In this document: piece by piece, positions 3,878 to 30,404 of the stretch | Layout of the letters: every line of letters begins with the position of its first letter | How positions within the stretch are numbered: position 1 is the first letter of the stretch | DNA from: a virus | Direction: 5' to 3' (one strand) | DNA length: 39,729 nucleotides | Virus record (IMG/VR): IMGVR_UViG_3300028831_000290 | Location: 1-39,729 of that record | Program-made: the position numbers and the translations under genes | Notes under the pieces: generated by a model | Told to the model about the DNA's origin: nothing | Databases searched by the model: none | The model's input: only the letters and a program-made list of their open reading frames with translations

Positions 3878-4150
3878 GTGCGAATTCTTCGCCTACTCCG
3901 CCAGCTGGCTCAGGCGCCGGCGCGGATCGATCGATTGGAGCAGCAGATGACCCGTGTCGACGACGTCATTTCCGACCTGAACGACGCCACCGACGAGATC
4001 GCCAACGACCTCGAATCTCTGCGCGAGCAGGTCTCCGGCCTGGACGCGACGACCGCCGAGAAGTTCACGCCTCTCGTCGAGCGGCTGCGCGCGCTGGGCG
4101 CGGACCCGCAGAACCCGGTGCCCCCGGCCGACGGCGGTACCACCGTCTGA
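3878..4150 (+). CDS. Coiled-coil protein (90 aa), last gene of the late block
   Basis: GTG 3878 follows AAGGTGA. Heptad-like sequence (IDRLEQQMTRVDDVISDLNDATDEIANDLESLREQV). Followed by a terminator. Confidence 0.6.
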   Translation: MRILRLLRQLAQAPARIDRLEQQMTRVDDVISDLNDATDEIANDLESLREQVSGLDATTAEKFTPLVERLRALGADPQNPVPPADGGTTV

Positions 4151-4164
4151 TCCCCGCGGTACTG

Positions 4165-4205
4165 CGAAGGGCCCCTCCCGGCTACCAACTGGGAGGGGCC
4201 CTTCG
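4165..4205. terminator. Bidirectional intrinsic terminator between convergent blocks
   Basis: Perfect 15-bp stem CGAAGGGCCCCTCCC / GGGAGGGGCCCTTCG with an 11-nt loop. It lies between + stop 4150 and - stop 4215. Confidence 0.8.
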
Positions 4206-4214
4206 TCATGCTGT

Positions 4215-4337
4215 TCAGTGTCCGTGGCCGTCGTGGCGCTTGCTCACGTGGTACGGGCACGAGGGCTCGAAGCAGTTGCCTTCCGAGTTGGCCGCGTGGC
4301 CGTTGGGGCACTGCTCGCCGATCGGCTTTTTGCTCAA
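4215..4337 (-). CDS. Cys/His-rich mini-protein, TTG start (40 aa)
   Basis: Minus strand GAAAGGA-N9-TTG. Sequence LSKKPIGEQCPNGHAANSEGNCFEPSCPYHVSKRHDGHGH. About 36 of 40 third positions are G/C. The start codon is uncertain. Confidence 0.45.
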   Translation of the reverse strand: MSKKPIGEQCPNGHAANSEGNCFEPSCPYHVSKRHDGHGH

Positions 4338-4372
4338 CCGAATCAGTCCTTTCTCGATGGTTTGCCGGGAGT

Positions 4373-4546
4373 TTACCGCTGGCCGGAACCGCTGCACGTG
4401 GGGCAGCTGCCGGAGCCCGAACACCACGGGCAGTTGATCCATTTTGTCTTGTTCGGGTCCCCGCTGGAGTGGGTGACCGCAGTTTGTCCCGAACCGCCGC
4501 ATGTGCGGCAGGAGCCGGAACCGTTGCACGTCTTGCAGGATGCCAT
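4373..4546 (-). CDS. DnaJ-type zinc-finger mini-protein with four CXXCXGXG repeats (57 aa)
   Basis: Not in the ORF track (<60 aa). GGAGGGACG precedes ATG 4546. Sequence MASCKTCNGSGSCRTCGGSGQTAVTHSSGDPNKTKWINCPWCSGSGSCPTCSGSGQR, ending at TAA 4373..4375. Confidence 0.75.
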   Translation of the reverse strand: MASCKTCNGSGSCRTCGGSGQTAVTHSSGDPNKTKWINCPWCSGSGSCPTCSGSGQR

Positions 4547-4577
4547 CGTCCCTCCGTGGTTCTTGGTGGTGTCTACT

Positions 4578-4606
4578 ACTGTACACTAGAGTGCAGTAGG
4601 ACGCAA
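4578..4606 (-). promoter_or_regulatory. Sigma-70-type promoter TTGCGT-17-TACAGT driving the terminal Cys-rich mini-operon
   Basis: On the minus strand the -35 is the reverse complement of 4601..4606 and the -10 is the reverse complement of 4578..4583. It sits in the 62-nt gap between the GT2 stop and ATG 4546, within a 25-nt motif shared with 8594..8618. Confidence 0.5.
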
Positions 4607-4608
4607 CC

Positions 4609-5241
4609 TCACCACCGGCTCGGCATCCCGCTCGTGTTGCTCTCGTGGTGCCACCAGTCCCACGTCACCTTCTCCACGTGCCGCATCACCGCGCCGGCGG
4701 CCCGGCACCGTAGCGTGAATTCGTGGTCCTCACCGCGGCGCTGGCCGTCGATGAGCTCGCCGGTGTCGTTGAACTGCTCGAAGCCTCCGGCCGCCCATGC
4801 CAGTTCAGTGCGCACCAGCGTGGTGATGGTGGTCTGGCACGGATCTTCATCGCTCCACTGGGAGAACGCCTTCTCGCCGAGGAACTGCGGGCCCTGGAAG
4901 ATCCGGCCATCAGGAAACCTGATCTGGAAGCGCGACCACACGTAGTCAGCCCGGTGCTCGACCGCCGCGCTGTAGAGCTCGACGAGGTGGCCCAGGTGCA
5001 TCGCGTCGTCGTCGTCCAGGAACGCCGTCCACTCGGTCTCCACGGCCAGCAGGCCACGGTGCCGGGTGCGTGCGGCGCCCTGGTGGCCGTGATCGACGAC
5101 CGTCACGATGCTCACCGGCACCTTATCGCCGAAGTGAACTTCCATCGCCGATGCCGCACCGCGAACGCTATGCAGTGCACGTTCCAGCATAGCGGCGCGA
5201 GGCGGGATGGTCGGAATGACGACCGTGATGCCGGGCAGCAT
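4609..5241 (-). CDS. GT2-family (GT-A fold) glycosyltransferase (210 aa)
   Basis: ATG 5241 overlaps the upstream stop (TGATG). Motifs ITVVIPTIPPR, FLDDDD (DxD) and GEDHEF. The ORF-track 256-aa version has a spurious N-terminal extension. Confidence 0.8.
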   Translation of the reverse strand: MLPGITVVIPTIPPRAAMLERALHSVRGAASAMEVHFGDKVPVSIVTVVDHGHQGAARTRHRGLLAVETEWTAFLDDDDAMHLGHLVELYSAAVEHRADYVWSRFQIRFPDGRIFQGPQFLGEKAFSQWSDEDPCQTTITTLVRTELAWAAGGFEQFNDTGELIDGQRRGEDHEFTLRCRAAGAVMRHVEKVTWDWWHHESNTSGMPSRW

Positions 5242-5393
5242 CAGCTCTTCACCGTTCCCCAGCCGTTGCAGCGGTTGCACGTCTCCCACTGCGTGCCGCC
5301 CTGACACACTTTGCAGCCCTTGCCGTTGCACGTTCGGCATGTGATGGTGAAGCCGCCCGCTCCGCAGCAGACCGGACACGTGACGTCAGCCAT
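5241..5393 (-). CDS. DnaJ-type zinc-finger mini-protein with four CXXC(X)GXG-like repeats (50 aa)
   Basis: Not in the ORF track. ATG 5393 shares its A with the upstream TAA (TAATG). Sequence MADVTCPVCCGAGGFTITCRTCNGKGCKVCQGGTQWETCNRCNGWGTVKS. Its TGA overlaps the next ATG. Confidence 0.75.
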   Translation of the reverse strand: MADVTCPVCCGAGGFTITCRTCNGKGCKVCQGGTQWETCNRCNGWGTVKS

Positions 5394-6106
5394 TACCAGC
5401 CCCTTTCGGTTGTGATCTTACTGAACAGTTCGAGGTTTGCACCCCGCAGGTCCCGATTGGACGGAACGAACAGCTCGCGCAGCGGCAGCCCGCTCGGACC
5501 CATCGAACCGCCCGGCACGCTGTGGTGCAGCCGGGACAGGAACTCGGTGTCCTCGTAGCCCCAGCCGGCGAAGCGTTCGTCCATCCCGCCAGCGGCCACC
5601 CATGCGGCGCGGGTGATGGCGAGCACGCCGGGGCATGGCGCGGAGTGTCGGTGCCAGTTCGCGCTGTCTTCAAACAGGTTACCGCCTCCGTTACCTACAA
5701 ACGGATTATTGATGATCAGGTGCGTCGCCGCTTCGCTGGCGTAGAGCACGTGGTCGTGCAGCCGCACCCACGGGTGGCGCTTGATCTGCTCGGTGGCCCA
5801 GCGCACGACGGCCGGGTCCGGCACGTGGTCGGCGCCGAACATCAGGAAAACGTAGCCGTGAGCGTGCTGGGCCGCGTCGTTGAGTGCACGGGACACGCTG
5901 AACGGTCGCGGCTCGACGCAGTTGTGAATCTCGCGCATCTCGCAGTGCGGCACGAACAGCGGGTCCACGCCCACGATCACCTCGTCAACGAGGCCCGTCA
6001 CGCGCAGCTGATCCCAGCGCCGGGCGTTGTAGCGCCACACCTTCGCCCGTTGTTTGCCGGCCGGGCTGTCGTCGGCGCCGAACGGCACCAGAACACTGAT
6101 CTTCAT
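5393..6106 (-). CDS. GT-A fold glycosyltransferase, GT2/galactosyltransferase-like (237 aa)
   Basis: ATG 6106 (MKISVLVPFG) overlaps the methyltransferase stop (ATGA) and follows GGAGAG. Contains GWGYEDTEF, which resembles the GWGGEDDD motif of the Glyco_transf_7C type. Confidence 0.7.
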   Translation of the reverse strand: MKISVLVPFGADDSPAGKQRAKVWRYNARRWDQLRVTGLVDEVIVGVDPLFVPHCEMREIHNCVEPRPFSVSRALNDAAQHAHGYVFLMFGADHVPDPAVVRWATEQIKRHPWVRLHDHVLYASEAATHLIINNPFVGNGGGNLFEDSANWHRHSAPCPGVLAITRAAWVAAGGMDERFAGWGYEDTEFLSRLHHSVPGGSMGPSGLPLRELFVPSNRDLRGANLELFSKITTERGW

Positions 6107-6831
6107 GCGGCACTCTCCAGTCCTAAGTAGAGCATGGCCTGACGGCCGAGGTACTCGCCATACGCGGGCGGGATGCACTCGCGGACCCCATCGCGGTTCA
6201 TCCATCCCACGCCGAGATCTTCACGGGCGAGCGCGACACCGTGAAAGTTGCCGATGTACTGCCGCAGCTCGCCGTCCCGGAACGGGCGGCCCATCTTCGT
6301 CTTCGGCATGTCGGTGTGGTCTTCACGGCCGAGCGGCCCCACGGGGTGCAGCGGGGGTTCGACGGGAAAGTTCATTTCGAAGTAGCGGTGCCGGTCCGTC
6401 TTCAGGCCGAACATCAGCCCGCACAGCCGCACGTCCGGGCGGAGGTTGCCCCTCCGCACTGCGCCCCCCACGTTCTCAATCCAGTACGGCAAGCCGCTCG
6501 CCTCGACAAGCTCGCGGAATGGGCCGATCAGCTGCGGGTGATCCCTGCCCTGGATCACCTGCGCATCACTGTCGGCCTGGCACGGTGGTGAACCGACGGC
6601 GAGCGCGGGCCGGTACTGGGCGATGAGCCCAGGCAGCATCTCCAGCACGTCGCCCTCTATCGACTCGAAAGGGTATCGGGCCCGGTGTCGTGGATCCTGC
6701 TCGATCCCGATCACTCGGAAGCCAGCGCGGACTAAGCCCGCGGATGCTCCGCCTTGGCAGCAGAACGCGTCGATCGCCACCGGCCGCCGGAGGTATGCGG
6801 GTGTGCCCACTAAGGGGTGCCAGACCTTCAT
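6103..6831 (-). CDS. DNA (cytosine-5) methyltransferase (242 aa)
   Basis: Motif I FCCQGGASAG, motif IV GSPPCQ and motif VI WIENV. ATG 6831 shares its A with the upstream TGA. Confidence 0.85.
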   Translation of the reverse strand: MKVWHPLVGTPAYLRRPVAIDAFCCQGGASAGLVRAGFRVIGIEQDPRHRARYPFESIEGDVLEMLPGLIAQYRPALAVGSPPCQADSDAQVIQGRDHPQLIGPFRELVEASGLPYWIENVGGAVRRGNLRPDVRLCGLMFGLKTDRHRYFEMNFPVEPPLHPVGPLGREDHTDMPKTKMGRPFRDGELRQYIGNFHGVALAREDLGVGWMNRDGVRECIPPAYGEYLGRQAMLYLGLESAA

Positions 6832-7544
6832 CACCACCGCCAGGCGTAGCGCAGGTCGGCCGCCCACACGGACGGATAAGTTTGCCGGATGCGGAACGCC
6901 ATGCCGAGCCCGCGCGCCAGGGTGGCGGTGCGCTCCAGCTTGAGCGCGAACGGCGTGCCGATGTCGTCGGACCAGCTCTCCCATTGGTCGACGCACCCGG
7001 GCCCGGTCAGCCCGTAGGCGTTGGTACCGCAGGCTTTCGCGGGAGACCAGACCTGCTGGTGCTGGAAGTGCATCACCTTGCCGGAGCTCTGCTCGGTGAT
7101 CGTGCCCTCGGCGTAGAGGCAGTACGCCGCAACGGGGATGGTGCTGCGGACGTAGTGCTGCGGGCCGCCGGTGGGCAGCGACACCCGGCCGGTCCGGCAG
7201 TCGGCGGCAGCCTGCCACTCGGTGGTGGTCTGGACCTTGTAGAACGTGCCGTTGTCGAACCACCCCGGCAAGGTCACCCATTCGCCGACGGTGACGAACT
7301 GCTCGTTGTAGGTGGGCGGCCACTTCGCCGGGTCGCCCCATGAGATGCGAGATTCGGTGGTGTTCTGCGGGCTCCAGCTCCACTGGCCGGCGACCTGCGT
7401 GCCGGACCAGTACTGCCCGGCCGAGCGGATACCGGACATCGCGTAGTCGGCGTAGGTGGGTACGGTGGCCGCGGTGCTGGCCGGGGTCATGGCGAGCGAC
7501 AGCCCGGCCAGCACCGCAAGCGTGAGGGTGAGAAAGCGTTTCAT
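6831..7544 (-). CDS. Secreted Trp/Cys-rich protein with a signal peptide (237 aa)
   Basis: ATG 7544 follows GAAGGAAG. The N-terminus MKRFLTLTLAVLAGLSLAMTPASTAAT looks like a Sec signal. The mature part has four Cys and many Trp. No family recognised. Confidence 0.7.
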   Translation of the reverse strand: MKRFLTLTLAVLAGLSLAMTPASTAATVPTYADYAMSGIRSAGQYWSGTQVAGQWSWSPQNTTESRISWGDPAKWPPTYNEQFVTVGEWVTLPGWFDNGTFYKVQTTTEWQAAADCRTGRVSLPTGGPQHYVRSTIPVAAYCLYAEGTITEQSSGKVMHFQHQQVWSPAKACGTNAYGLTGPGCVDQWESWSDDIGTPFALKLERTATLARGLGMAFRIRQTYPSVWAADLRYAWRW

Positions 7545-7717
7545 GACTGGACTTCCTTCGTGAGCTGTCGCGCCTCGATGAGGTCGGCGATACCGCGCAG
7601 CATGTTGATGATCTCCGTGTCGCTGCGGTGGCTGGACCACTGCGCGCGTCCTTCGCGATCCACCAGCACGACGAGATCGGTGGCGTTGAGGCGTTCCTGG
7701 GTGATGTGCAGCATCAT
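7541..7717 (-). CDS. Hypothetical protein (58 aa)
   Basis: ATG 7717 overlaps the upstream TGA (ATGA), and its own TGA overlaps the downstream ATG 7544. Sequence begins MMLHITQERLNATDLVVLVDREG. Confidence 0.55.
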   Translation of the reverse strand: MMLHITQERLNATDLVVLVDREGRAQWSSHRSDTEIINMLRGIADLIEARQLTKEVQS

Positions 7718-7863
7718 CGAACCTGACTGTGAGGGTGGGCAGCCCCGGGACCGGGGAAGAGGTAGTCGCAGCCGCGCATCATGCCGACCACGGCGGCCAG
7801 GCCGAGCAGGAGCAGCACAACCGCGCGGCGGACGCCGTAGCGCGGGTAGGTCCGGCGCCGCAT
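7714..7863 (-). CDS. Small membrane or signal-anchored protein (49 aa)
   Basis: Not in the ORF track. ATG 7863 overlaps the upstream TGA (TGATG). Sequence MRRRTYPRYGVRRAVVLLLLGLAAVVGMMRGCDYLFPGPGAAHPHSQVR, with G/C-rich third positions. Confidence 0.6.
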   Translation of the reverse strand: MRRRTYPRYGVRRAVVLLLLGLAAVVGMMRGCDYLFPGPGAAHPHSQVR

Positions 7864-8366
7864 CAGAGCTCACCGAACAGCTGGTAAATCCGTTCCCGGC
7901 CGACGAACGGCGACGGGTCGGTCCGGCGGTGGCGGCCGCGGGTCGGCGCGGGAGTCATCGGCATCGCGGTGCCGTGCGGCGGGGTGAGCGGGTTGTACTC
8001 GTGGGTGAACAGCGTCGGCTCGCCGACCTCGCCACGGTCCACAAGGGGTTGCATGGCCTCGTGCCGGGCGGTGGCGATCGCCGTCTCGACCTCGTCCGGC
8101 CAGCGCATCGGCGTGGCGAACGTCTCGGTGACGGCTTCGCGGATCGACTCGACGCGCCGGGCGCGGAAGTAACGCCGCAGGCCGATCTCTTCCAGCGAGG
8201 TGAAGACCAGGCTGCCGCAGACGACCGCGCCGATCCAGGTGGCCGCGGCCTCCCAGGGCGAGGTGAGGTCGGGCAGCCGGAGCACGACGTAGCCGGCGAG
8301 GATGGTCATCCCGGCCACCACGCGCAGGGTAAGGATGCTGTCGGGGGCGTTGGATCGGCGGGTCAT
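7863..8366 (-). CDS. Membrane protein with 2 N-terminal TM segments and a cytoplasmic domain (167 aa)
   Basis: ATG 8366 overlaps the upstream TGA. TM segments VVAGMTILAGYVVL and ATWIGAVVCGSLVFTSL. Confidence 0.7.
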   Translation of the reverse strand: MTRRSNAPDSILTLRVVAGMTILAGYVVLRLPDLTSPWEAAATWIGAVVCGSLVFTSLEEIGLRRYFRARRVESIREAVTETFATPMRWPDEVETAIATARHEAMQPLVDRGEVGEPTLFTHEYNPLTPPHGTAMPMTPAPTRGRHRRTDPSPFVGRERIYQLFGEL

Positions 8367-8503
8367 CAGCGGGCCTTTCGCGGGTACTGGCGGATGAGGT
8401 AGACGATGGCCGCGGCCGACGCCATACCGACGCAGACGTGCAGGCCGGTCACGCCCAGCAGGGCGAGCAGGAGCACGGCGGCGGTACGGCGGCGGATGGT
8501 CAT
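8366..8503 (-). CDS. Small single-TM membrane protein (45 aa)
   Basis: Not in the ORF track. GAGGTAGACG precedes ATG 8503. Sequence MTIRRRTAAVLLLALLGVTGLHVCVGMASAAAIVYLIRQYPRKAR. Nearly all third positions are G/C. Confidence 0.65.
   Translation of the reverse strand: MTIRRRTAAVLLLALLGVTGLHVCVGMASAAAIVYLIRQYPRKAR
8393..8408. repeat. 16-bp perfect inverted repeat, arm 1 (partner 8501..8516)
   Basis: GATGAGGTAGACGATG on the + strand. Its exact reverse complement CATCGTCTACCTCATC is at 8501..8516, with a 92-nt spacer. Confidence 0.9.
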
Positions 8504-8516
8504 CGTCTACCTCATC
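8501..8516. repeat. 16-bp perfect inverted repeat, arm 2, covering the SD and start codon of the 45-aa gene
   Basis: The reverse complement of 8393..8408. On the minus-strand RNA this arm reads GAUGAGGUAGACGAUG, which is the SD plus AUG. Confidence 0.9.
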
Positions 8517-8519
8517 TCG

Positions 8520-8595
8520 GTGAACACAGCGGCCGGGGAGAGGGGACTCTCAGCCGGTGGCCCTTGTCTTTCGACTCCCCGGCCGCTGTGTTCAC
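8520..8595 (-). promoter_or_regulatory. Large stem-loop with a 21-bp perfect stem: attenuator/terminator or 5'-UTR structure
   Basis: GTGAACACAGCGGCCGGGGAG (8520..8540) pairs with CTCCCCGGCCGCTGTGTTCAC (8575..8595), with a 34-nt loop. Intergenic, with no U-tract on the minus strand. Confidence 0.5.
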
Positions 8596-8596
8596 T

Positions 8597-8625
8597 ACTG
8601 TACACCAGTGTGCAGCAGCTGTCTA
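8597..8625 (-). promoter_or_regulatory. Sigma-70-type promoter TAGACA-17-TACAGT
   Basis: On the minus strand the -35 is the reverse complement of 8620..8625 (it overlaps the upstream stop codon) and the -10 is the reverse complement of 8597..8602. It shares a 25-nt motif with 4575..4599. Confidence 0.5.
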
Positions 8626-20877: not shown

Positions 20878-22296
20878 ATGAGCGCCCCGGCGCTGAGCAA
20901 GGCCGATGAGCTCCGCATCCTGCGCCGGCTGGCCGAGCTCAAGCCGTTTCAGTGGCGCTGCCGCCGGCCGGGCTGCGACGGCCTACCTCATCCCGACCCC
21001 AACCCGCTGCTGTCGATGCCGCATCGGCACGCTCGCGCCGCGCAAGTGCCGCCGCCGGGTGATTGGTACTTCTGGTTCCTCATGGCCGGGCGCGGGTTCG
21101 GCAAGACGCGCACCGGCGCCGAGTGGATCAAGGACCGGATGATGAGCGAACCGGGCCACCGCGTCGCCGTCATCTGCCCGGACTTCGCCATCGGCCGCGA
21201 CGTCTGCATCGAGGGTGAGTCCGGCCTGCTCGGCATCGAGCCGAACCCCGGCCTGTTCCCGCCCGAGGTGCGCCGGGGCCTGAAGTGGAACCGGTCCATC
21301 GGCGAGCTCACGTTGCCCAACGGCAGCCAGCTGCGCATCTTCGGCGCCGACACCCGCAAGGACGCCGAGAGCCTGCGCGGGTACCAGTGCCACTCCGCCT
21401 GGTTCGAGGAGCTGGGCACGCAGCGCTACGGTGACGTCGCGTGGGACATGCTGGAGTTCGCGTTGCGTCTCGGCGACGATCCGCGCGTCGTGGTGACCGG
21501 CACCCCGCGGCCGACCGCGCTCATCAAGCGGCTGGTCAAGGATCCCGACGGCGTCATCACCAACGGCACTACCTACGACAACGAGCACAACCTGCCGGCG
21601 AAGATGCGCGACCGCATCAAGCGCCGCCACGAGGGCACGACGCTGGGCCAGCAAGAGCTGTTCGGCCTGCTGCTCGACGACGCCGTCGGCGCGCTGTGGA
21701 ACTCGGAGATGTTCCTCCGGCCGGACACCGCGGCCGAGCTGCCCGACTTCGTGCACGTCGTCATCGGGGTGGACCCGGCCGGCAGCGCGCACAAGACCTC
21801 GGACCTGACCGGCATCATCGCCGTCGGCCTGGACGCGGCTGGGCGGCTGTGGGTGCTGGCCGACAAAAGCGGGCGCTACTCTCCCGAGCAGTGGCGCACC
21901 GAGGTTTACGAGCTGTTTGACACCCTCGGCGCTGACCTCGTCGTGGGGGAGCGCAACTTCGGCGGCGACATGGTGGCCAGCACGCTGCGCGCCGTGCCTC
22001 CGGGTGAGCGGGTGCTGCCCTTCGAGCTGGTGACCGCGAGCCGGGGCAAGGTCATCCGGGCCCGGCCGGTGGCCGATCTCTACGAGCAGGGGCGTGTGCT
22101 GCACCTGGGCACCTTCGCCGATCTGGAGACCGACCTCACCAGCTGGATCCCGCCTGGCCAGTTCGACACCGAGGGCAACCCGATCGAGCCCAGCAACTGG
22201 AGCCCCGACCGCATGGACGCGCTGGTGTGGGCGGCCACGAAGCTGGGCGTCCGGCCACGTAAGCCGCGCCGGACGATGACATTCGTAGCCGCATGA
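20878..22296 (+). CDS. Terminase large subunit (472 aa)
   Basis: Walker A-like MAGRGFGKTRTG, with typical length and position. Confidence 0.85.
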   Translation: MSAPALSKADELRILRRLAELKPFQWRCRRPGCDGLPHPDPNPLLSMPHRHARAAQVPPPGDWYFWFLMAGRGFGKTRTGAEWIKDRMMSEPGHRVAVICPDFAIGRDVCIEGESGLLGIEPNPGLFPPEVRRGLKWNRSIGELTLPNGSQLRIFGADTRKDAESLRGYQCHSAWFEELGTQRYGDVAWDMLEFALRLGDDPRVVVTGTPRPTALIKRLVKDPDGVITNGTTYDNEHNLPAKMRDRIKRRHEGTTLGQQELFGLLLDDAVGALWNSEMFLRPDTAAELPDFVHVVIGVDPAGSAHKTSDLTGIIAVGLDAAGRLWVLADKSGRYSPEQWRTEVYELFDTLGADLVVGERNFGGDMVASTLRAVPPGERVLPFELVTASRGKVIRARPVADLYEQGRVLHLGTFADLETDLTSWIPPGQFDTEGNPIEPSNWSPDRMDALVWAATKLGVRPRKPRRTMTFVAA

Positions 22297-22310
22297 CGGG
22301 CCGGCACGGC

Positions 22311-22499
22311 TTAGCGCCGAGTAATACTCTCGAAGGCCCGGTCATTCGCCGACCGCTTGGCGATGCTGGCGCGGCTCTTCCAAACCCACGAGTAGCACTG
22401 GCTGCCGAGGACAACGGCGGTGCCGATTACGCGGCCGCACAGGCGGTTCAAGCTGGCGCGGTAACCGGGGTCGGCGACGCGGTAGTGGGTGAAACGCAT
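22311..22499 (-). CDS. Reverse-oriented small protein with a possible TM segment (62 aa), moron-like
   Basis: GAAGGA-N9-ATG 22499. Minus-frame third positions are about 85% G/C, against about 50% for the overlapping + frame. The central stretch VIGTAVVLGSQCYSWVW is hydrophobic. Confidence 0.6.
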   Translation of the reverse strand: MRFTHYRVADPGYRASLNRLCGRVIGTAVVLGSQCYSWVWKSRASIAKRSANDRAFESITRR

Positions 22500-22531
22500 G
22501 GGAGTCTTGTCCTTCGCTTAGGTGACGTTCG

Positions 22532-22560
22532 TGGCCGCATAATGTACCCTGAAGTACACA
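22532..22560 (+). promoter_or_regulatory. Candidate promoter TGGCCG-17-TACACA in the divergent 78-nt gap
   Basis: It lies in the AT-richer gap 22500..22577, which also contains a CATAAT hexamer and a 5-bp inverted repeat TGTAC-N6-GTACA. Confidence 0.35.
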
Positions 22561-22577
22561 CTACGACACCAGGGGAC

Positions 22578-23048
22578 ATGATGGATGAAGACGAGATCAC
22601 CGACCTGGACCCAGAAGCGGCCGAGCTGAACCCCGAGCAGCTGTGCTTCGCGCTACACAAGGGCGGCGGCCTGCTCACTCGCCACGGTCGGCCGGTCTGG
22701 GCGACGCGTAGGCAGATGCAGACCATGCCCGACATCGCCGAGCAGCTCATCCCGATCGACGGGGCACCGCCGCTGGGCAGCGTGCCACTCTTCGAGGCCA
22801 ACGCGGCGCCGGACGTCGTCGGCCGGATGCTTGACCTCGTCGGCACGCTGGAGAAGATGACGGCGGCGGTGGCCGAGCGGGTGGCCATGCTCGACAAGGT
22901 GACCGAGCGCGTCGCCGGGCGCCCGACCCACGAGCGCGAGCTGCTGGCCCGCGCGGCGGAGCTCATCGACCCGGACGCTGCGCCGCCCTCGAACAGCTAC
23001 GAGGTGCACCTGGACTGGCTCTCGAAGTGGCGCGAGGTGACCTCGTGA
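22578..23048 (+). CDS. Hypothetical acidic-N-terminus protein (156 aa)
   Basis: ATG 22578/22581 follows AGGGGA. The upstream part of the track ORF is antisense to the 62-aa gene and has AT-rich third positions. Confidence 0.6.
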   Translation: MMDEDEITDLDPEAAELNPEQLCFALHKGGGLLTRHGRPVWATRRQMQTMPDIAEQLIPIDGAPPLGSVPLFEANAAPDVVGRMLDLVGTLEKMTAAVAERVAMLDKVTERVAGRPTHERELLARAAELIDPDAAPPSNSYEVHLDWLSKWREVTS

Positions 23049-25749: not shown

Positions 25750-25952
25750 GTGAGGTGGCCGGAACATTCGACATGCCGGGCGCGATTCGGAAAGTGTTGG
25801 AAGAGCGGGCAGACGAGATTTTCTTATTCGAGATCCCGACGTTCGAGGAGAACGCGGCCAAGCTGCGTCGCGAACTGATGTTCGACTGGTACATGATGGC
25901 GCAGGTGCGTACGCCGCCGTCGGCTATGAAGATCGTCACGGACGTCTCATGA
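25746..25952 (+). CDS. Hypothetical protein, AT-richer (68 aa)
   Basis: GTG 25746 overlaps the portal stop, and its stop overlaps the next ATG (ATGA). Confidence 0.5.
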   Translation: MSEVAGTFDMPGAIRKVLEERADEIFLFEIPTFEENAAKLRRELMFDWYMMAQVRTPPSAMKIVTDVS

Positions 25953-27916: not shown

Positions 27917-28071
27917 ACGAGGAGCTGACGCGGTACCTCGCTGCCGCTGTGATCAAGGCGGGCGGTGAGGTACGACTCACGCACGAAGATCGAATTCAGG
28001 CGTTCGACTTGACACTCAAGGTCGACGACGAGACTGATGACCTGATCATCAGTGCCGAGGTGGCCGAGTGA
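27913..28071 (+). CDS. Hypothetical small acidic protein, AT-richer (52 aa)
   Basis: ATGA overlap upstream and GTGA overlap downstream. Confidence 0.5.
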   Translation: MNEELTRYLAAAVIKAGGEVRLTHEDRIQAFDLTLKVDDETDDLIISAEVAE

Positions 28072-29129
28072 GCGCCGTTGTCTACGCGCCCTACATCGAC
28101 CCGAGCACCTTCTACCGGCTGCTTGAGCCGGCCCGGGTGACGAACACGCCGGTCGTCGAGCACCTGCCGAACGTCGGCGCGGCGGAGACGGTGGTGCTGA
28201 ACCGGCCGCTGGATGCCGGCATCGCCGAGCAGGTCCGGCTGTGGCGCGCCGAGGGGCGCCGGGTGGTCGTGGACCTCGACGACGACTTCGACGCCGTCGT
28301 GCCGGAGCACCGTATCCACGGCCGGTACACCACCGAGTTCCTGCACCAGGCATGCTACTGGGCGTCGGCGGTGACCTGCTCGACGCCCGCGCTCGCCGAA
28401 CGGTACGGCTACGGCCACGGCGAGGTGCTGCGGAACTGCATCCCGGAAAGCTACCTGTCGGTAACCCGACGATCCCGGGTGCCTGGGTACATCGAGCTAG
28501 GTGGTGTGCTGGATAACAGCGTCGGGACGTGGGTCGGCTGGTATGGCTCGCTCGGCAGCCACCCGCGTGACCCGGCTGCCGCCGGGCGCGGCGTGGGCGA
28601 CGCGCTCAACCCGCACCCCGACGTCGAGTTCGTGTTCGCCGGGCCGGGCAAGGACGCGCCGCAGCTCGCCGAGTTGTTCGGCCTGCAGCGCCCGGTGCGC
28701 GAGCTGGGGTTTTTCTCGATGCTCGGCCTCATCCAGATCATTAGCGAGTTCGATATCGGCATCGTGCCGCTGGAGATCAACCCGTTCAACGAGGCGAAGT
28801 CCTACCTCAAGGGGCTGGAGTTCGCCGCGGTGGGCGTGCCGGTCATCGCCAGCCCGACGCCGGAGTACATCCGGATGGCGGCGCAGGGCGGCTGTGTGAC
28901 GGCGGCCAGGCGCGACGATTGGTGGCTGTGGCTGCGTGAGCTCATCAGGCAGCCTGAGATACGGGCTGAGCACGCTGCGCGCGGCCGGGCATGGGCCGCC
29001 GAGCAGACCTACGAGAAGCACGCTGGTCTCTGGCGTGCGGTTTGGTACGCTGATGGACAAGCCAGTGCGGACAACGGGGCTGATGCGACCACCGCCGGGC
29101 GACGTGTGACGACCGACCACGCCCCCTGA
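28068..29129 (+). CDS. GT-B fold glycosyltransferase, GT4/GT1-like (353 aa), inside the head module
   Basis: C-terminal signature NEAKSYLKGLEFAAVGVPVIAS resembles the E-x7-E region (..EA.a.G.PV.as) of retaining GT-B enzymes. G/C-rich third positions. Confidence 0.65.
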   Translation: MSAVVYAPYIDPSTFYRLLEPARVTNTPVVEHLPNVGAAETVVLNRPLDAGIAEQVRLWRAEGRRVVVDLDDDFDAVVPEHRIHGRYTTEFLHQACYWASAVTCSTPALAERYGYGHGEVLRNCIPESYLSVTRRSRVPGYIELGGVLDNSVGTWVGWYGSLGSHPRDPAAAGRGVGDALNPHPDVEFVFAGPGKDAPQLAELFGLQRPVRELGFFSMLGLIQIISEFDIGIVPLEINPFNEAKSYLKGLEFAAVGVPVIASPTPEYIRMAAQGGCVTAARRDDWWLWLRELIRQPEIRAEHAARGRAWAAEQTYEKHAGLWRAVWYADGQASADNGADATTAGRRVTTDHAP

Positions 29130-29141
29130 GAGGATGCGACC

Positions 29142-30404
29142 ATGCCCCAGACCACCGCCGAATGGCGCCGCGATGCCACCGTCGAGGAGCTCACCGCCCG
29201 CGTCGAGGAGATGCGCGCCGAGTGGGCCGAGACCAGCAAGCTCGACCGCGAATCCGGCGAGTTCCGCAAGGCCAAGACCGAATTCCTGGACGAGGTCGAA
29301 CAGATCGACGTCAACCTCACGCTGCGCTCGATGGCGACCATGCCGCCGGCCCTGCGCAACGAGGCGCGCGCGGGCGGAGCCGACAACGGCACGCTGGCCC
29401 CGCAATACGAGCGTCGCAGCCCCGGTGAAATCGTCGTGGCCGACGAGGACTTCATGAACTGGTGCAAGCGCGCCGCGGCCAAGGGCTCGATGATCGGTGA
29501 GTCGCCCGGCGTCGAGCTGCGCAGCCTGATCAGCAGCGTCGAAACCCGGGCGCTGGTGGCCGCGGGCGACGCGAACGGCTCCAGCACCATGTTGCCGGTC
29601 GGCCAGCCGTTCCTGGTCGACACCCGGCGCCGCCGGCTGTTCATCCGCGACCTCATCGGCGTGCAGGGCACCGGGCTGGCCGCGATCCCGTACATCCGGG
29701 AGCTCAACCCGGTGGCGAACGCGCTGTCAGCGAGCACCGTGGCCGAGGGTGCGACGAAGCCGGAAGCCAAGGTCGAGTTCACGCCCGACATCGCGCCGGT
29801 CCAGGTGATCGCGGCCACGATCCCGATCACCACGCAGATCATGGAGGACTCGCCCACCCTGATGGGGTACATCAACGGGCGTCTCACCTACATGCTGGAG
29901 TACCGCGAGGAAGACGAGATCATCCGCGGGAACGGCGTGACGCCGGACCTGAAGGGCATCCTCACCTATTCCGGGATCCAGACGACGCCCACCGCGGGTG
30001 CGGGCGAGTACGCCATCACCATCGGCAACGCAATCGCGAAGATCGAGCTGGTCGACGGCTACGCCGACGGTGTGGCGATGAACCCGGCCACCTTCTGGGC
30101 GATGGTCACCCACCGCGCCGCGGGCGGCTCCGGCACGTTCGACGCCGGCGCCTTCACGCAGTCCCCGATCCAGTACGTGTGGGGCCTGCCGGTCGTGCGT
30201 ACGAACGCGATGGCCGCCAACCAGAACCTCGTCGGCAACTTCGCGATGGGCGCCACGCTGTTCGACCGCTCGCAGTCCGGCGTCCGGATCTTCGAGCAGC
30301 ACGGCACCTTCGCCGCGGAGAACAAGGTGCTGCTGCGCGCGGAGGAGCGCGTCGCGCTGGCCGTCAACCGGCCGGACTTCTTCTGCGTCGCCACGACCAG
30401 CTGA
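29142..30404 (+). CDS. Major capsid protein, HK97 fold with an N-terminal delta-like domain (420 aa)
   Basis: GAGGA precedes ATG 29142. The call rests on size, the helical N-terminal ~100 aa and position after the protease. Confidence 0.85.
   Translation: MPQTTAEWRRDATVEELTARVEEMRAEWAETSKLDRESGEFRKAKTEFLDEVEQIDVNLTLRSMATMPPALRNEARAGGADNGTLAPQYERRSPGEIVVADEDFMNWCKRAAAKGSMIGESPGVELRSLISSVETRALVAAGDANGSSTMLPVGQPFLVDTRRRRLFIRDLIGVQGTGLAAIPYIRELNPVANALSASTVAEGATKPEAKVEFTPDIAPVQVIAATIPITTQIMEDSPTLMGYINGRLTYMLEYREEDEIIRGNGVTPDLKGILTYSGIQTTPTAGAGEYAITIGNAIAKIELVDGYADGVAMNPATFWAMVTHRAAGGSGTFDAGAFTQSPIQYVWGLPVVRTNAMAANQNLVGNFAMGATLFDRSQSGVRIFEQHGTFAAENKVLLRAEERVALAVNRPDFFCVATTS

What the first reader, a model, noticed from the sequence alone, without database searches (positions are those of the whole stretch)
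4609..6831. Coupled C5 methyltransferase and two GT-A glycosyltransferases, with a minimal DnaJ-type zinc-finger mini-protein wedged between the GTs
On the minus strand the order is as follows. First a C5 methyltransferase (FCCQGGASAG, GSPPCQ, ENV), joined by ATGA to a GT-A enzyme (GWGYEDTEF). That is joined by TAATG to a 50-aa ORF made only of four CXXC(X)GXG-like repeats, which is joined by TGATG to a GT2 enzyme (VVIPT, FLDDDD, GEDHEF). A second mini-protein with four perfect CXXCXGXG repeats follows at 4373..4546. Both mini-ORFs are shorter than the ORF-track cutoff, so automated calling would miss them. Stop/start overlaps or a strong SD, plus G/C-rich third positions, support them as real genes. 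Stand-alone DnaJ zinc-centre modules are known as assembly chaperones (for example plant BSD2). I cannot place an alternating GT/zinc-finger arrangement beside a DNA methyltransferase in any described pathway. I see three competing readings. (a) Virion protein glycosylation, as known for some mycobacteriophages, with the Zn-fingers as GT partners. (b) DNA hypermodification built on C5 chemistry, although no TET/JBP-type oxygenase or hydroxymethylase is visible. (c) The Ser/Gly/Cys-rich mini-proteins are themselves GT2 substrates, by analogy to glycocin-type S/O-glycopeptides, although no leader peptide or exporter is seen.
Basis: partly seen in the sequence, partly recalled or inferred. Interest (0 to 1): 0.85.

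Follow-up and report, generated by a model that had tools for sequence, protein, structure and literature searches.

The report
Phage sugar-transferase genes with unrelated zinc-finger mini-genes
An uncultured 40-kb high-GC phage carries a three-enzyme sugar-adding pathway that most likely decorates its own particle, and the DNA methylase and two tiny zinc-finger genes beside it are real but interchangeable passengers, not partners of those enzymes.

Summary
All genes, motifs and stop/start overlaps are as described, and the window's 7 CXXCXGXG-coding sites all lie in the two mini-ORFs.

The proposed functional unit does not survive comparison with about ten related ~40-kb phage contigs.
- **Conserved core:** GT-A, a variable slot of small ORFs, a class-I SAM methyltransferase and GT2. 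A third enzyme, a GT-B glycosyltransferase, sits between the head protease and the major capsid gene (window 28068-29129). It lies directly beside GT-A in more distant relatives.
- **This window:** it has lost the SAM methyltransferase.
- **C5 DNA methylase:** reduced to a 27-codon remnant in the sister phage, downstream of GT2 in another relative, and absent from five others examined.
- **Mini-protein 1:** a genuine DnaJ-cysteine-rich-type zinc-finger family under purifying selection. In two relatives it sits after the large terminase gene, and unrelated ORFs fill the GT slot.
- **Mini-protein 2:** no counterpart in any related locus, but it belongs to a widespread class of stand-alone 4×CXXCXGXG mini-proteins.

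Best reading: virion glycosylation, analogous but not orthologous to the mycobacteriophage Corndog system (and to Che8, by published account), plus an orphan DNA methylase and mobile zinc-finger accessory genes. This is a new member of a known kind, of modest interest.

The parts
28068..29129 (+). GT-B (GT4-like) glycosyltransferase, 353 aa, between the head protease/MuF-like gene (25949-27916) and the major capsid gene. Proposed third enzyme of the same glycan pathway.
   Evidence: Pfam Glyco_trans_1_4 at 30.4 bits (cut-off 27); phrog_7162. AF2 model pLDDT 91. Foldseek top matches are GT4 enzymes: GlgM, HepE, PimB', MshA, BshA, PglA, SdgB. Same position in L017, L019, L020 and L320. A homologue lies directly upstream of GT-A in L015 (28% identity, E 2e-13); the equivalent L016 protein aligns alongside it. 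It occurs on contigs of the same lengths as the GT-A hits.
29142..30404 (+). Major capsid protein (HK97-type, with an N-terminal delta-like domain). Candidate acceptor of the glycan; this is inferred only.
   Evidence: phrog_10 at 4.5e-40. The C-terminus is ...FFCVATTS, and ...FFCVATTG in L017. There is no long Ser/Thr tail.
6831..7544 (-). Conserved 237-aa secreted protein of unknown function, first gene of the coupled run (signal peptide MKRFLTLTLAVLAGLSLAMTPASTAAT).
   Evidence: No Pfam or PHROG hit. It is 61-74% identical in L008, L010, L011, L012 and L014, always directly upstream of GT-A. Its stop overlaps the methylase start.
6103..6831 (-). Small C5 cytosine DNA methyltransferase (242 aa). 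An independent accessory gene, probably anti-restriction.
   Evidence: Motifs I, IV and VI read from the sequence. phrog_363 at 1.1e-27. Pfam DNA_methylase is below its cut-off. Deleted to a remnant in L003/L008. A 36%-identical homologue lies downstream of GT2 in L012.
5393..6106 (-). GT-A-fold glycosyltransferase (GT7/GT2_2-like), 237 aa.
   Evidence: Glyco_transf_7C at 8.7e-10. 106 homologues, nearly all on phage-sized contigs. The family profile hits beta4GalT7 at 2.7e-6. AF2 pLDDT 91. Foldseek matches chondroitin synthase, beta4GalT7, WrtF, GalNAc-T3 and TarS, plus Gordonia phage Syleon 'galactosyltransferase' and a Che8 GT in the viral library.
5241..5393 (-). mini1: 50-aa stand-alone zinc-finger protein of the DnaJ cysteine-rich type (four CXXC pairs).
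   Evidence: Homologues in L008, L012, L017 and L019 (54-66% identity) keep all 8 Cys. Pairwise dN/dS is 0.06-0.51. The family profile hits the E. coli DnaJ CR domain 1exk at 4.5e-9 and Anti-TRAP at 1.7e-4. It is a called JGI protein.
4609..5241 (-). GT2-family glycosyltransferase, 210 aa.
   Evidence: Glycos_transf_2 at 1.2e-8; phrog_14775 at 2.3e-35. 71% identical in L003. 43% identical to Streptomyces phage Zuko gp106. 36% identical to the region of genes 177/178 annotated glycosyltransferase in Arthrobacter phages Talia1610 and Racecar, three genes downstream of their GT-B homologue (gene 174).
4373..4546 (-). mini2: 57-aa stand-alone protein with four perfect CXXCXGXG repeats in two tandem pairs. 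It has its own Shine-Dalgarno (GGAGG) after a 62-nt gap and lies in the hypervariable end of the operon.
   Evidence: Pfam DnaJ_CXXCXGXG at 26.6 bits (cut-off 32.7). No homologue in 20 related loci. 71 representative clusters at E<=1e-3, about half of them 49-77 aa; the best are 58 aa (61% identity) and 56 aa (62% identity).
4215..4337 (-). Possible 40-aa Cys/His-rich ORF (TTG start, AAAGGA upstream). Uncertain.
   Evidence: Read. No family hit, no homologue seen, and codon-position G+C is not discriminating.
4165..4205 (.). Strong G+C-rich hairpin between the convergent leftward operon and the lysis/late operon. A likely bidirectional terminator without a T-run.
   Evidence: RNA fold -39.7 kcal/mol, z = -5.1, 0 of 200 shuffles as stable. 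Not picked up by the T-run-dependent scan.

Best explanation
The window is a complete ~40-kb contig of an uncultured high-GC siphophage.

**Glycosyltransferases.** The two GTs of the finding (GT-A 5393-6106 and GT2 4609-5241) belong to a three-enzyme glycan-building pathway. Its third member is a GT-B enzyme placed between the head protease and the major capsid gene (28068-29129).
- Shown: the three enzymes are inherited together across the phage group.
- Shown: in most relatives a class-I SAM methyltransferase sits between GT-A and GT2, and this phage has lost it.
- Inferred: the enzymes act in the cytoplasm on nucleotide-sugars and build a short O-linked glycan on virion proteins (capsid and/or tail) during assembly. 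This would parallel the phage-encoded GT plus O-methyltransferase sets of mycobacteriophages Che8, Corndog and Myrna. Here the glycan would be unmethylated.

**C5 methyltransferase.** It is an independent orphan DNA methylase. Self-protection of phage DNA from host restriction is inferred. It merely occupies a variable position in the same operon.

**Mini-proteins.** Both are real, stand-alone zinc-binding modules of the DnaJ cysteine-rich type. They lie in two hypervariable slots for small accessory genes.
- The mini1 family moves between the GT slot and a slot after the large terminase gene, so it works independently of translational coupling to the GTs.
- Its most likely role is a small zinc-stabilised protein-binding (holdase or adaptor) module acting on some phage or host protein. 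This is inferred with low specificity.
For: **Core and variable parts**
- Contexts of GT-A homologues in L008/L009, L010, L011, L012/L013, L014, L015 and L016 show GT-A, then small ORF(s), then Methyltransf_23, then GT2.
- The same GT2 family sits next to a SAM methyltransferase and another GT in Streptomyces phage Zuko and in L004.
- The window has no methyltransferase remnant (tblastn best E 1.1).

**GT-B linkage**
- GT-B is syntenic between the protease and the capsid gene in L017, L019, L020 and L320.
- It is adjacent to GT-A in L015 and L016.
- In Arthrobacter phages the GT-B homologue (gene 174) lies three genes upstream of the GT2 homologue (genes 177/178).
- In an Amycolatopsis-assembly contig it lies among head-tail genes, with two GT2 genes before the terminase.
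- GT-A and GT-B hits share 11 contig lengths.

**Precedent**
- Cluster O mycobacteriophages carry an O-methyltransferase plus three tandem GTs that modify capsid and tail tube (PMC11600133, citing Freeman 2023).
- In Corndog these genes (gp35-38) lie between the gene I take to be the portal (gp34, annotated only as hypothetical) and the capsid protease, gp39.
- Che8 gp110 and Corndog gp38 are essential for capsid glycosylation (PMC12363180).

**Methylase independence:**

**mini1**
- Patchy and relocating distribution.
- A real gene under constraint.

**Such modules are common in viral DNA**
- Two examples were read in detail.
- mini2 has 71 representative clusters.
- Published phage examples exist.
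Against: - No glycan, acceptor or expression data exist. The virion target rests on gene position and analogy.
- The GTs are not orthologues of the characterised Corndog enzymes. The best match is GT-A versus gp37, E 0.003 over 33 residues.
- The genes immediately upstream of GT-A encode a secreted protein and two small membrane proteins. This could point to an envelope-directed function.
- mini1 homologues were found in the window and in 4 of the 7 other lineages examined (L008/9, L012/13, L011/17, L010/19). L014/L020 has only a degenerate 43-aa Cys-rich ORF after the terminase gene. L015 and L016 were only partly sampled, as was L320. A trans-acting link to glycosylation is therefore not excluded.
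Confidence: 0.5

Rival explanations
1. The GTs remodel a host cell-envelope glycopolymer (wall polysaccharide, teichoic-acid-like polymer or glycolipid) during infection. This might block superinfection or stop progeny from adsorbing to debris. They would act together with the secreted and membrane proteins encoded just upstream.
For: - A conserved secreted 237-aa protein and two small membrane proteins directly precede GT-A in the same overlapping gene run.
- GT-A structural neighbours include the wall-teichoic-acid GTs TarS and RmlT.
- GT-B neighbours include the actinobacterial envelope and thiol-pathway enzymes PimA/PimB', MshA and the methylmannose polysaccharide mannosyltransferase.
- Automatic JGI names read 'involved in cell wall biosynthesis'.
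Against: - GT-B sits inside the head-morphogenesis module in five genomes (the window, L017, L019, L020, L320) and among head-tail genes in a sixth.
- No flippase, polyprenyl-phosphate GT or membrane-anchored GT is present, and no transmembrane segment was noticed on reading the three GT sequences (not formally predicted).
- In L015 and L016 the secreted protein is replaced by GT-B at that position.
- The GT-A family has no copies in 185,579 bacterial and archaeal species genomes beyond a short motif, so it is not a lysogenic-conversion module.
- No integrase was found among the ORFs scanned.
Confidence: 0.2
2. The zinc-finger mini-proteins are dedicated partners of the glycosyltransferases, acting as chaperones or adaptors that fold the GTs or present acceptor proteins to them.
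For: - mini1 is translationally coupled between GT-A and the next gene in three lineages: the window, L003/L008/L009 and L012/L013.
- Stand-alone DnaJ-type CR modules can act as assembly factors (BSD2; from general knowledge).
- A mini1 homologue occurs somewhere in at least five GT-bearing genomes.
Against: - The slot holds unrelated ORFs in L010, L011, L014, L015 and L016, while GT-A, the methyltransferase and GT2 stay conserved.
- In the L011 and L010 phages the homologue lies after the large terminase gene, far from the GT-A/GT2 cassette.
- L320 has no such ORF after the terminase gene.
- Zuko, L004, L005 and the Arthrobacter phages have the GT2 family without any CXXCXGXG ORF nearby.
- mini2 is unique to this contig.
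Confidence: 0.1
3. The C5 methyltransferase and the GTs together hypermodify phage DNA, through glycosylation of a modified cytosine.
For: - The methylase is joined to GT-A by an ATGA overlap.
- The known T4 DNA glucosyltransferases have the GT-B fold (general knowledge).
Against: - The methylase is deleted in the sister phage and absent or elsewhere in other relatives, while all GTs persist.
- No dCMP/dUMP hydroxymethylase, TET/JBP oxygenase or other base-modifying enzyme was found among the scanned ORFs.
- The conserved partner is a Methyltransf_23 class-I enzyme, not a DNA enzyme.
- No DNA glucosyltransferase appears in the top 50 structural matches of GT-A or GT-B.
- A 5-methyl group offers no hydroxyl for glycosylation.
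Confidence: 0.04
4. The Ser/Gly/Cys-rich mini-proteins are themselves the GT2 substrates, as glycocin-like glycopeptides.
For: - mini2 is rich in Ser, Gly and Cys and follows GT2.
- The known glycocin S-/O-glycosyltransferases are GT2-family enzymes (general knowledge).
Against: - GT2 is conserved in many relatives that lack mini2, and often lack mini1 nearby.
- There is no leader peptide, protease/exporter or immunity gene in the window.
- The Cys pattern is that of a zinc-binding CR domain, not of the paired disulfides of a glycocin.
Confidence: 0.03

Closest known systems
Mycobacteriophage virion glycosylation systems: Che8 (gp110 named), Corndog gp35-38, Myrna (Freeman et al. 2023, Cell Host Microbe 31:1216, as cited in PMC11600133 and PMC12363180)
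   Same: - Several phage-encoded soluble GTs, usually with a SAM-dependent methyltransferase.
- In Corndog the genes sit in the head module, between the presumed portal gene (gp34, annotated hypothetical) and the protease. This resembles the GT-B gene here, between the protease and the capsid gene.
- In Che8 the GT named in the literature (gp110) has a high gene number, which suggests a position far from the head genes. That would resemble the GT-A/GT2 cassette here, but I did not check the Che8 map.
- The hosts are actinobacteria or likely actinobacteria.
   Different: - No orthology: blastp of GT-B, GT-A and GT2 against Corndog gp35-38 gives nothing better than E 0.003 over 33 residues.
- The methyltransferase of the relatives is Methyltransf_23, not TylF-type, and it is missing from this window.
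- The pathway is split between two loci.
- Glycosylation itself is unproven here, and no C-terminal Ser/Thr tail is evident.
GT / SAM-methyltransferase / GT2 cassette of Streptomyces phages Zuko and KimJongPhill (gp106-109), and the GT cluster of Arthrobacter phages Racecar, Talia1610, Mimi and Atuin
   Same: - GT2 is 43-47% identical to Zuko gp106.
- The Arthrobacter phages carry homologues of both GT-B (39% identity) and GT2 (36% identity) in one cluster.
   Different: - Zuko's partner GT (gp108) is not a GT-A homologue, and Zuko adds a P4H-type 2OG-Fe(II) oxygenase.
- None of these has a CXXCXGXG mini-ORF or a C5 methylase in the cluster.
- Their functions are also untested.
DnaJ/Hsp40 cysteine-rich zinc-finger domain (PF00684; E. 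coli DnaJ CR domain, PDB 1exk) and stand-alone derivatives (Anti-TRAP, PDB 2bx9/3lcz; plant BSD2)
   Same: - Four CXXC(X)G(X)G units that would form two zinc centres.
- The mini1 family profile matches 1exk at E 4.5e-9 and Anti-TRAP at 1.7e-4.
- mini2 gives sub-threshold Pfam hits to DnaJ_CXXCXGXG and Anti-TRAP.
- Its size (50-57 aa) is that of Anti-TRAP (53 aa).
   Different: - There is no J domain or C-terminal substrate-binding domains, so these are not Hsp40s.
- Both fall below the Pfam gathering score.
- The linkers are shorter than in DnaJ.
- The partner protein is unknown.
- Phage CR-type modules described so far sit inside larger proteins (HMO-2011-type DNA polymerases, Loki gp45) or are unannotated.
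Orphan C5 cytosine DNA methyltransferases of phages (phrog_363)
   Same: Motifs I (FxxxGG), IV (PPCQ) and VI (ENV) are present, and phrog_363 matches at E 1e-27. Presence among close relatives is variable, as is typical of anti-restriction accessory genes.
   Different: It is short (242 aa) with a small target-recognition region. It scores below the Pfam PF00145 cut-off and has no PDB relative by sequence. Specificity and activity are unknown.

Membership tests
DnaJ-type cysteine-rich zinc-finger domain (PF00684) | Four CXXCXGXG repeats in one chain | tested here: met
   mini2 has four perfect repeats. mini1 has three strict repeats plus CKVCQGGT. All 7 strict sites of the window lie in these ORFs, against 0.89 expected.
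DnaJ-type cysteine-rich zinc-finger domain (PF00684) | Score above the Pfam gathering threshold (32.7 bits) | tested here: not met
   mini1 scores 15.4 bits and mini2 26.6 bits. Both are short, compacted versions.
DnaJ-type cysteine-rich zinc-finger domain (PF00684) | Significant sequence match to a solved CR domain | tested here: met
   The mini1 family profile (A4) matches 1exk at E 4.5e-9, 6jzb at 1.3e-4 and Anti-TRAP 3lcz at 1.7e-4. mini2 alone gives no PDB hit at E<=1, so this is met for mini1 only.
DnaJ-type cysteine-rich zinc-finger domain (PF00684) | Binding of two zinc ions and a V-shaped beta-hairpin fold | not testable with these tools
   No metal analysis is possible. I did not model the mini-proteins because only single-sequence input was permitted.
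DnaJ/Hsp40 co-chaperone | N-terminal J domain with an HPD motif and C-terminal substrate-binding domains | tested here: not met
   The proteins are 50 and 57 aa and consist of the CR module only.
C5 cytosine DNA methyltransferase (PF00145) | Catalytic motifs I (SAM binding), IV (PCQ with catalytic Cys) and VI (ENV) | tested here: met
   DAFCCQGGASAG, GSPPCQ and IENV are read in order in the 242-aa product. phrog_363 matches at E 1.1e-27.
C5 cytosine DNA methyltransferase (PF00145) | Pfam gathering score (22 bits) | tested here: not met
   13.7 bits, E 0.042, covering only the N-terminal 80 residues.
GT-A fold glycosyltransferase (GT2 / GT7-like) | Curated family score and a GT-A Rossmann-like fold with an acidic metal-binding motif | tested here: met
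   - GT-A: Glyco_transf_7C at 38.6 bits (cut-off 23); AF2 pLDDT 91; Foldseek GT-A enzymes at E down to 1e-7; invariant D93-H94 and E185-D186.
- GT2: Glycos_transf_2 at 35.5 bits (cut-off 23.3) with an LDDDD motif.
GT-B fold glycosyltransferase (GT4-like) | Curated family score and a two-Rossmann-domain fold | tested here: met
   Glyco_trans_1_4 at 30.4 bits (cut-off 27). AF2 pLDDT 91. Foldseek GT4 enzymes at E about 1e-12, TM 0.6-0.7.
Phage virion glycosylation system (Che8/Corndog/Myrna type) | Phage-encoded glycosyltransferases, several per genome | tested here: met
   Three GTs of different families are present in the window.
Phage virion glycosylation system (Che8/Corndog/Myrna type) | Orthology to the experimentally essential GTs (Corndog gp38, Che8 gp110) | tested here: not met
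   blastp against Corndog gp35-38 gives at best E 0.003 over 33 residues. A Che8 GT is only a remote structural match (rank 47). Che8 gp110 itself was not compared by sequence.
Phage virion glycosylation system (Che8/Corndog/Myrna type) | Associated sugar O-methyltransferase | tested here: not met
   Absent from the window. Present in relatives, but as Methyltransf_23 rather than TylF-type.
Phage virion glycosylation system (Che8/Corndog/Myrna type) | GT genes embedded in or next to virion structural genes | tested here: met
   GT-B lies between the protease and the capsid gene here and in four relatives. Compare Corndog gp35-38 upstream of the protease gp39.
Phage virion glycosylation system (Che8/Corndog/Myrna type) | O-linked glycans on capsid and tail-tube subunits | not testable with these tools
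   This needs mass spectrometry or glycan staining of virions.
Phage DNA glycosyl-hypermodification (T4-type glucosyl-hmC and relatives) | An enzyme that creates a hydroxyl-bearing base (dNMP hydroxymethylase, or a TET/JBP oxygenase) | tested here: not met
   None was found among the 25 larger ORFs scanned against Pfam or PHROGs. Small ORFs were not all scanned.
Glycocin-type glycopeptide locus | A precursor peptide conserved with its GT, plus a leader peptide and an exporter/protease | tested here: not met
   The mini-ORFs are not conserved with GT2. No transporter or peptidase gene is in the operon.

The most novel reading that the evidence does not exclude
The mini1 family would be a trans-acting, zinc-dependent assembly factor specific to this phage group's glycosylated virion. 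For example, it could be a holdase that keeps capsid or tail subunits accessible to the three GTs before assembly. That would explain why the gene is kept in GT-bearing genomes whether it sits in the GT cassette or right after the large terminase gene. It would be the first phage-encoded stand-alone DnaJ-CR module with a defined client, and the first accessory factor for phage protein glycosylation.
Probability: 0.08. Interest if true: 0.65.

Novelty: new member of a known kind. Interest (0 to 1): 0.3.

Why it matters
**If the best reading holds.** Probable virion glycosylation has so far been shown only for a few mycobacteriophages. This would extend it to a large, wholly uncultured group of ~40-kb high-GC soil phages. 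GT-A has 106 protein clusters and GT-B has more than 570. The enzymes are non-orthologous and the pathway is split between the head module and the end of the early operon. That is useful for annotation: the three GTs should be read together, and the methylase and mini-ORFs separately. It also gives a natural methyltransferase-minus variant for studying what glycan methylation does.

**The negative result.** Tight stop/start overlaps in these genomes do not indicate functional coupling. The slots next to conserved enzymes are exchange points for small accessory genes.

**The mini-proteins.** Stand-alone 4×CXXCXGXG mini-proteins turn out to be common in viral DNA and essentially uncharacterised. 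That is a modest open question in its own right.

Tried and rejected
- **DNA similarity:** megablast of the cassette against 50,697 phage records found no match.
- **Mini-proteins against cultured phages:** tblastn of mini1 and mini2 gave nothing significant, probably in part because of the low-complexity filter.
- **mini1 in the word-indexed 5.8-billion protein set:** it found only itself, because homologues share too few 5-mers or were not called. Degenerate DNA patterns were needed instead.
- **GT-B in metagenome contigs:** a single-sequence scan found nothing.
- **Structure database by sequence:** single-sequence PDB searches of all four enzymes found nothing. Family profiles gave only weak hits to beta4GalT7, MshA and PimB'.
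- **Acceptor from structure:** Foldseek of the GT-A and GT-B models gave only generic GT-A and GT4 neighbours, so the acceptor cannot be read from structure.
- **Host or prophage link:** the genome-contig scan with the GT-A family found only remote matches through the GWGYED motif. The closest cultured phage capsid proteins are at most 32% identical.
- **Glycosylation tail:** a Ser/Thr-rich C-terminal tail on the capsid or tail tube was looked for and not seen.
- **Transcription signals:** the promoter and terminator consensus scan of 4050-8600 was uninformative.
- **Codon-position G+C:** it is not discriminating as coding evidence for the mini-ORFs.
- **Key paper:** Freeman et al. 2023 is not held in the library, so its content is cited through two later papers.
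- **Systematic survey:** only a few fetched loci were exported to the scripting machine, so a scripted survey of the ~240 motif-bearing viral loci for neighbouring GTs could not be done. Two were inspected by hand.

Full report
**What is in the sequence**

The window is an entire 39,729-bp JGI contig with about 68% G+C.
- The plus strand from about 17.9 kb, continuing across the contig ends to 4.15 kb, carries primase, large terminase, portal, a head protease/MuF-like protein, major capsid, tail tube, tape measure, minor tail and lysis genes.
- The minus strand from about 17 kb down to 4.2 kb carries family-A DNA polymerase, helicase, exonuclease and small genes.

The finding lies at the distal end of this leftward operon, convergent with the lysis genes. 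A strong hairpin separates the two (4165-4205, -39.7 kcal/mol, z -5.1).

- The secreted-protein stop overlaps the methylase start (TGATG).
- The methylase joins GT-A through ATGA.
- GT-A joins mini1 through TAATG.
- mini1 joins GT2 through TGATG.
- A 62-nt gap with GGAGG then precedes mini2.

Family searches agree for GT-A (Glyco_transf_7C), GT2 (Glycos_transf_2, phrog_14775) and the methylase (phrog_363). The methylase is below the Pfam cut-off.

The seven CXXCXGXG-coding sites of the whole window all fall in the two mini-ORFs, against 0.89 expected.

**Relatives**

No cultured phage is close.
- Megablast of the cassette found nothing.
- Capsid proteins of cultured phages are at most 32% identical.

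GT-A nevertheless has 106 homologous protein clusters, many on 38-41-kb contigs. I fetched the neighbourhoods of seven lineages. All share the same plan at the end of the leftward operon:

[secreted ~240-aa protein, or GT-B] – GT-A – one or two small ORFs – class-I SAM methyltransferase (Methyltransf_23) – GT2 – variable genes – convergent lysis genes.

The same GT2 family sits beside a SAM methyltransferase and another GT in Streptomyces phage Zuko and in viral contig L004.

This window is the exception, because it has no SAM methyltransferase.
- The mini1 stop overlaps the GT2 start. In the sister phage (L003/L008) a 1-nt stop/start overlap at the equivalent position leads into the methyltransferase instead.
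- tblastn finds no remnant of it (best E 1.1).

**The C5 methylase is not part of the unit**
- In the sister phage (GT-A 82% identical) only 27 codons remain, including motif I. A DNA alignment shows a deletion of about 620 nt running from just after motif I to the GT-A start.
- In L012 and L013 a 36%-identical methylase lies downstream of GT2.
- In L010, L011, L014, L015 and L016 none is present in this region.

A gene that is lost, moved or absent while the GTs persist is an independent accessory gene. An orphan anti-restriction methylase is the ordinary reading.

ATGA-type overlaps are the norm here: 9 of 14 junctions in L008 overlap. They carry no special weight.

**The zinc-finger mini-proteins are real but not GT partners**

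*mini1*
- It has homologues with 54-66% identity in which all eight cysteines are invariant.
- Pairwise dN/dS is 0.06-0.51.
- The family profile matches the solved E. coli DnaJ cysteine-rich domain (1exk, E 4.5e-9) and Anti-TRAP.
- It is therefore a genuine, constrained DnaJ-CR-type module without a J domain.

Its location varies between lineages.

| Lineage | Content of the GT-A slot | mini1 homologue elsewhere |
|---|---|---|
| Window | mini1 | none found |
| L003/L008/L009 | mini1 homologue | flanks only |
| L012/L013 | mini1 homologue, missed by the gene caller | flanks only |
| L010 | unrelated 50-aa ORF | 51-aa homologue right after the large terminase gene (L019) |
| L011 | unrelated 101-aa ORF | 51-aa homologue right after the large terminase gene (L017) |
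| L014 | unrelated 60-aa ORF | only a degenerate 43-aa Cys-rich ORF after the terminase gene (L020) |
| L015 | unrelated 78- and 74-aa ORFs | flanks only |
| L016 | unrelated 41- and 76-aa ORFs | flanks only |
| L320 | slot not fetched | none after the terminase gene |

The gene therefore hops between two hot-spots for small accessory ORFs.

*mini2*
- It has no counterpart in any of the related loci.
- An exhaustive HMMER search finds 71 representative clusters. About half are 49-77-aa stand-alone proteins, the best at 61-62% identity over the full length.

*How common such modules are*
- One inspected example is a 76-aa secreted mini-protein beside what looks like a small-terminase-type gene (not family-searched). 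Another is a module inside a 1,369-aa protein that looks head-associated.
- CR-type modules have been noted in other phages: HMO-2011-type DNA polymerases and Acinetobacter phage Loki gp45.

**A third glycosyltransferase, and the likely target**

ORF 28068-29129 lies between the head protease and the major capsid gene. It is a GT4-like GT-B enzyme.
- Pfam Glyco_trans_1_4.
- AF2 model with pLDDT 91.
- Foldseek top matches GlgM, HepE, PimB', MshA, BshA, PglA and SdgB.

It is linked to the cassette in several ways.
- It holds the same position in L017, L019, L020 and L320.
- Its hits fall on 11 contigs of the same lengths as the GT-A hits.
- In L015 and L016 a homologue lies directly upstream of GT-A (28% identity and E 2e-13 for L015; L016 aligns alongside it).
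- In the Arthrobacter phages Racecar and Talia1610 the GT-B homologue (gene 174) and the GT2 homologue (genes 177/178) lie three genes apart in one region.
- In a contig of an Amycolatopsis assembly, a GT-B homologue sits among head-tail genes, with two GT2 genes before the terminase.

The three GTs therefore form one co-inherited pathway that repeatedly associates with virion genes.

The known precedent is virion O-glycosylation in mycobacteriophages.
- Cluster O phages carry an O-methyltransferase followed by three GTs that modify capsid and tail tube (PMC11600133).
- Che8 gp110 and Corndog gp38 are essential for capsid glycosylation (PMC12363180).
- In Corndog these genes (gp35-38; TylF-type methyltransferase, Glyco_tranf_2_2, Glyco_transf_25) lie just upstream of the capsid protease, gp39.

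I therefore take virion glycosylation as the most likely function. In this phage the glycan would be unmethylated.

This is analogy, not membership.
- The enzymes are not orthologous to Corndog's.
- No Ser/Thr-rich C-terminal tail is evident on the capsid or tail tube.
- Structural neighbours of GT-A are generic: chondroitin synthase, beta4GalT7, WrtF, GalNAc-T3 and TarS.

**Rivals**

*Host-envelope modification* is the serious rival (0.2).
- For: GT-A is preceded by a conserved secreted protein and two small membrane proteins.
- Against: GT-B lies in the head module.
- Against: there is no flippase or lipid-carrier GT.
- Against: GT-B replaces the secreted protein at that position in L015 and L016.
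- Against: the family is absent from bacterial genomes.

*DNA hypermodification* is unlikely (0.04).
- No base-hydroxylating or hydroxymethylating enzyme was found.
- The methylase is dispensable in relatives.
- The conserved methyltransferase is not a DNA enzyme.

*A glycocin-like role for the mini-proteins* (0.03) conflicts with their non-conservation next to GT2.

*A trans-acting chaperone role of mini1 in glycosylation or assembly* cannot be excluded (0.08-0.1). Clear homologues occur in the window and in four of the seven other lineages sampled, and most of the rest were only partly sampled.

**Verdict**

The sequence features are real and the mini-ORFs are genuine genes. The "alternating GT / zinc-finger unit coupled to a C5 methylase" is a juxtaposition of three independent things:
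- part of a three-GT, probably virion-directed, glycosylation pathway that has lost its methyltransferase;
- an orphan DNA methylase;
- mobile DnaJ-CR-type mini-genes in hypervariable slots.

This is a new member of a known kind, in an uncultured phage group. Interest is modest (0.3). The main values are correct annotation, the natural methyltransferase-minus variant, and the abundance of uncharacterised stand-alone CXXCXGXG mini-proteins in viral DNA.

Noticed in passing
window 28068-29129 (+): A GT4-like GT-B glycosyltransferase is inserted between the head protease and the major capsid gene. The position is conserved in four related contigs.
   Followed up: yes
window 6831-7544 (-), with 7714-7863 and 7863-8366 upstream: A conserved 237-aa secreted protein has no family match. 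It is W- and Cys-rich and 61-74% identical in five relatives, and it directly precedes the GT genes. Upstream of it lie a 49-aa single-TM ORF and a 167-aa two-TM ORF. Function unknown.
   Followed up: partly
window 4215-4337 (-): A possible 40-aa Cys/His-rich ORF (LSKKPIGEQCPNGHAANSEGNCFEPSCPYHVSKRHDGHGH) follows mini2, with an AAAGGA Shine-Dalgarno-like site and a TTG start. It has no homologue or family hit.
   Followed up: partly
window 4165-4205: A 15-bp G+C-rich stem (-39.7 kcal/mol, z -5.1) lies between the convergent operons. It has no T-run, so the consensus terminator scan misses it.
   Followed up: yes
L003 2865-2924 (= L008 5922-6000): A 27-codon remnant of the C5 methylase (MADDRPVVIDAFSCQSGASAGLEQAA) survives in the sister phage. 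It marks a deletion of about 620 nt relative to the window.
   Followed up: yes
L012 6836-6991 (same in L013): A 51-aa mini1 homologue was missed by the public gene call, because the start of the downstream methyltransferase was over-extended across it in another frame.
   Followed up: yes
L001 3000-3647 (Streptomyces phage Zuko gp109): The 'hypothetical protein' next to Zuko's GT / methyltransferase / GT2 cassette is a prolyl-4-hydroxylase-type 2OG-Fe(II) oxygenase (PF13640, 2.8e-15). This suggests hydroxylation followed by glycosylation of a protein in that phage.
   Followed up: partly
L160 7745-11854; L198 4155-4385: Other viral contigs carry the same 4×CXXCXGXG module. One lies inside a 1,369-aa protein that looks head-associated and includes an ATPase-like P-loop (my reading of the sequence; no family search run). 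Another is a 76-aa protein with a signal peptide, beside a gene that looks like a small terminase subunit (likewise not family-searched).
   Followed up: partly
L018 (Amycolatopsis sp. NPDC006131 assembly, JBEXTX010000053.1): A phage-like region in a bacterial assembly has a GT-B homologue (46% identity) among head-tail genes and two GT2 genes just upstream of the terminase. This is the only link to a named host genus.
   Followed up: partly
window 22293-23048 (+) and the terminase-portal gap in L017, L019, L020, L320: The gap between the large terminase and portal genes is a second hot-spot of small variable ORFs. The window has an unmatched 251-aa ORF there, where relatives have 3-5 small ORFs, including the mini1 homologue.
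   Followed up: partly
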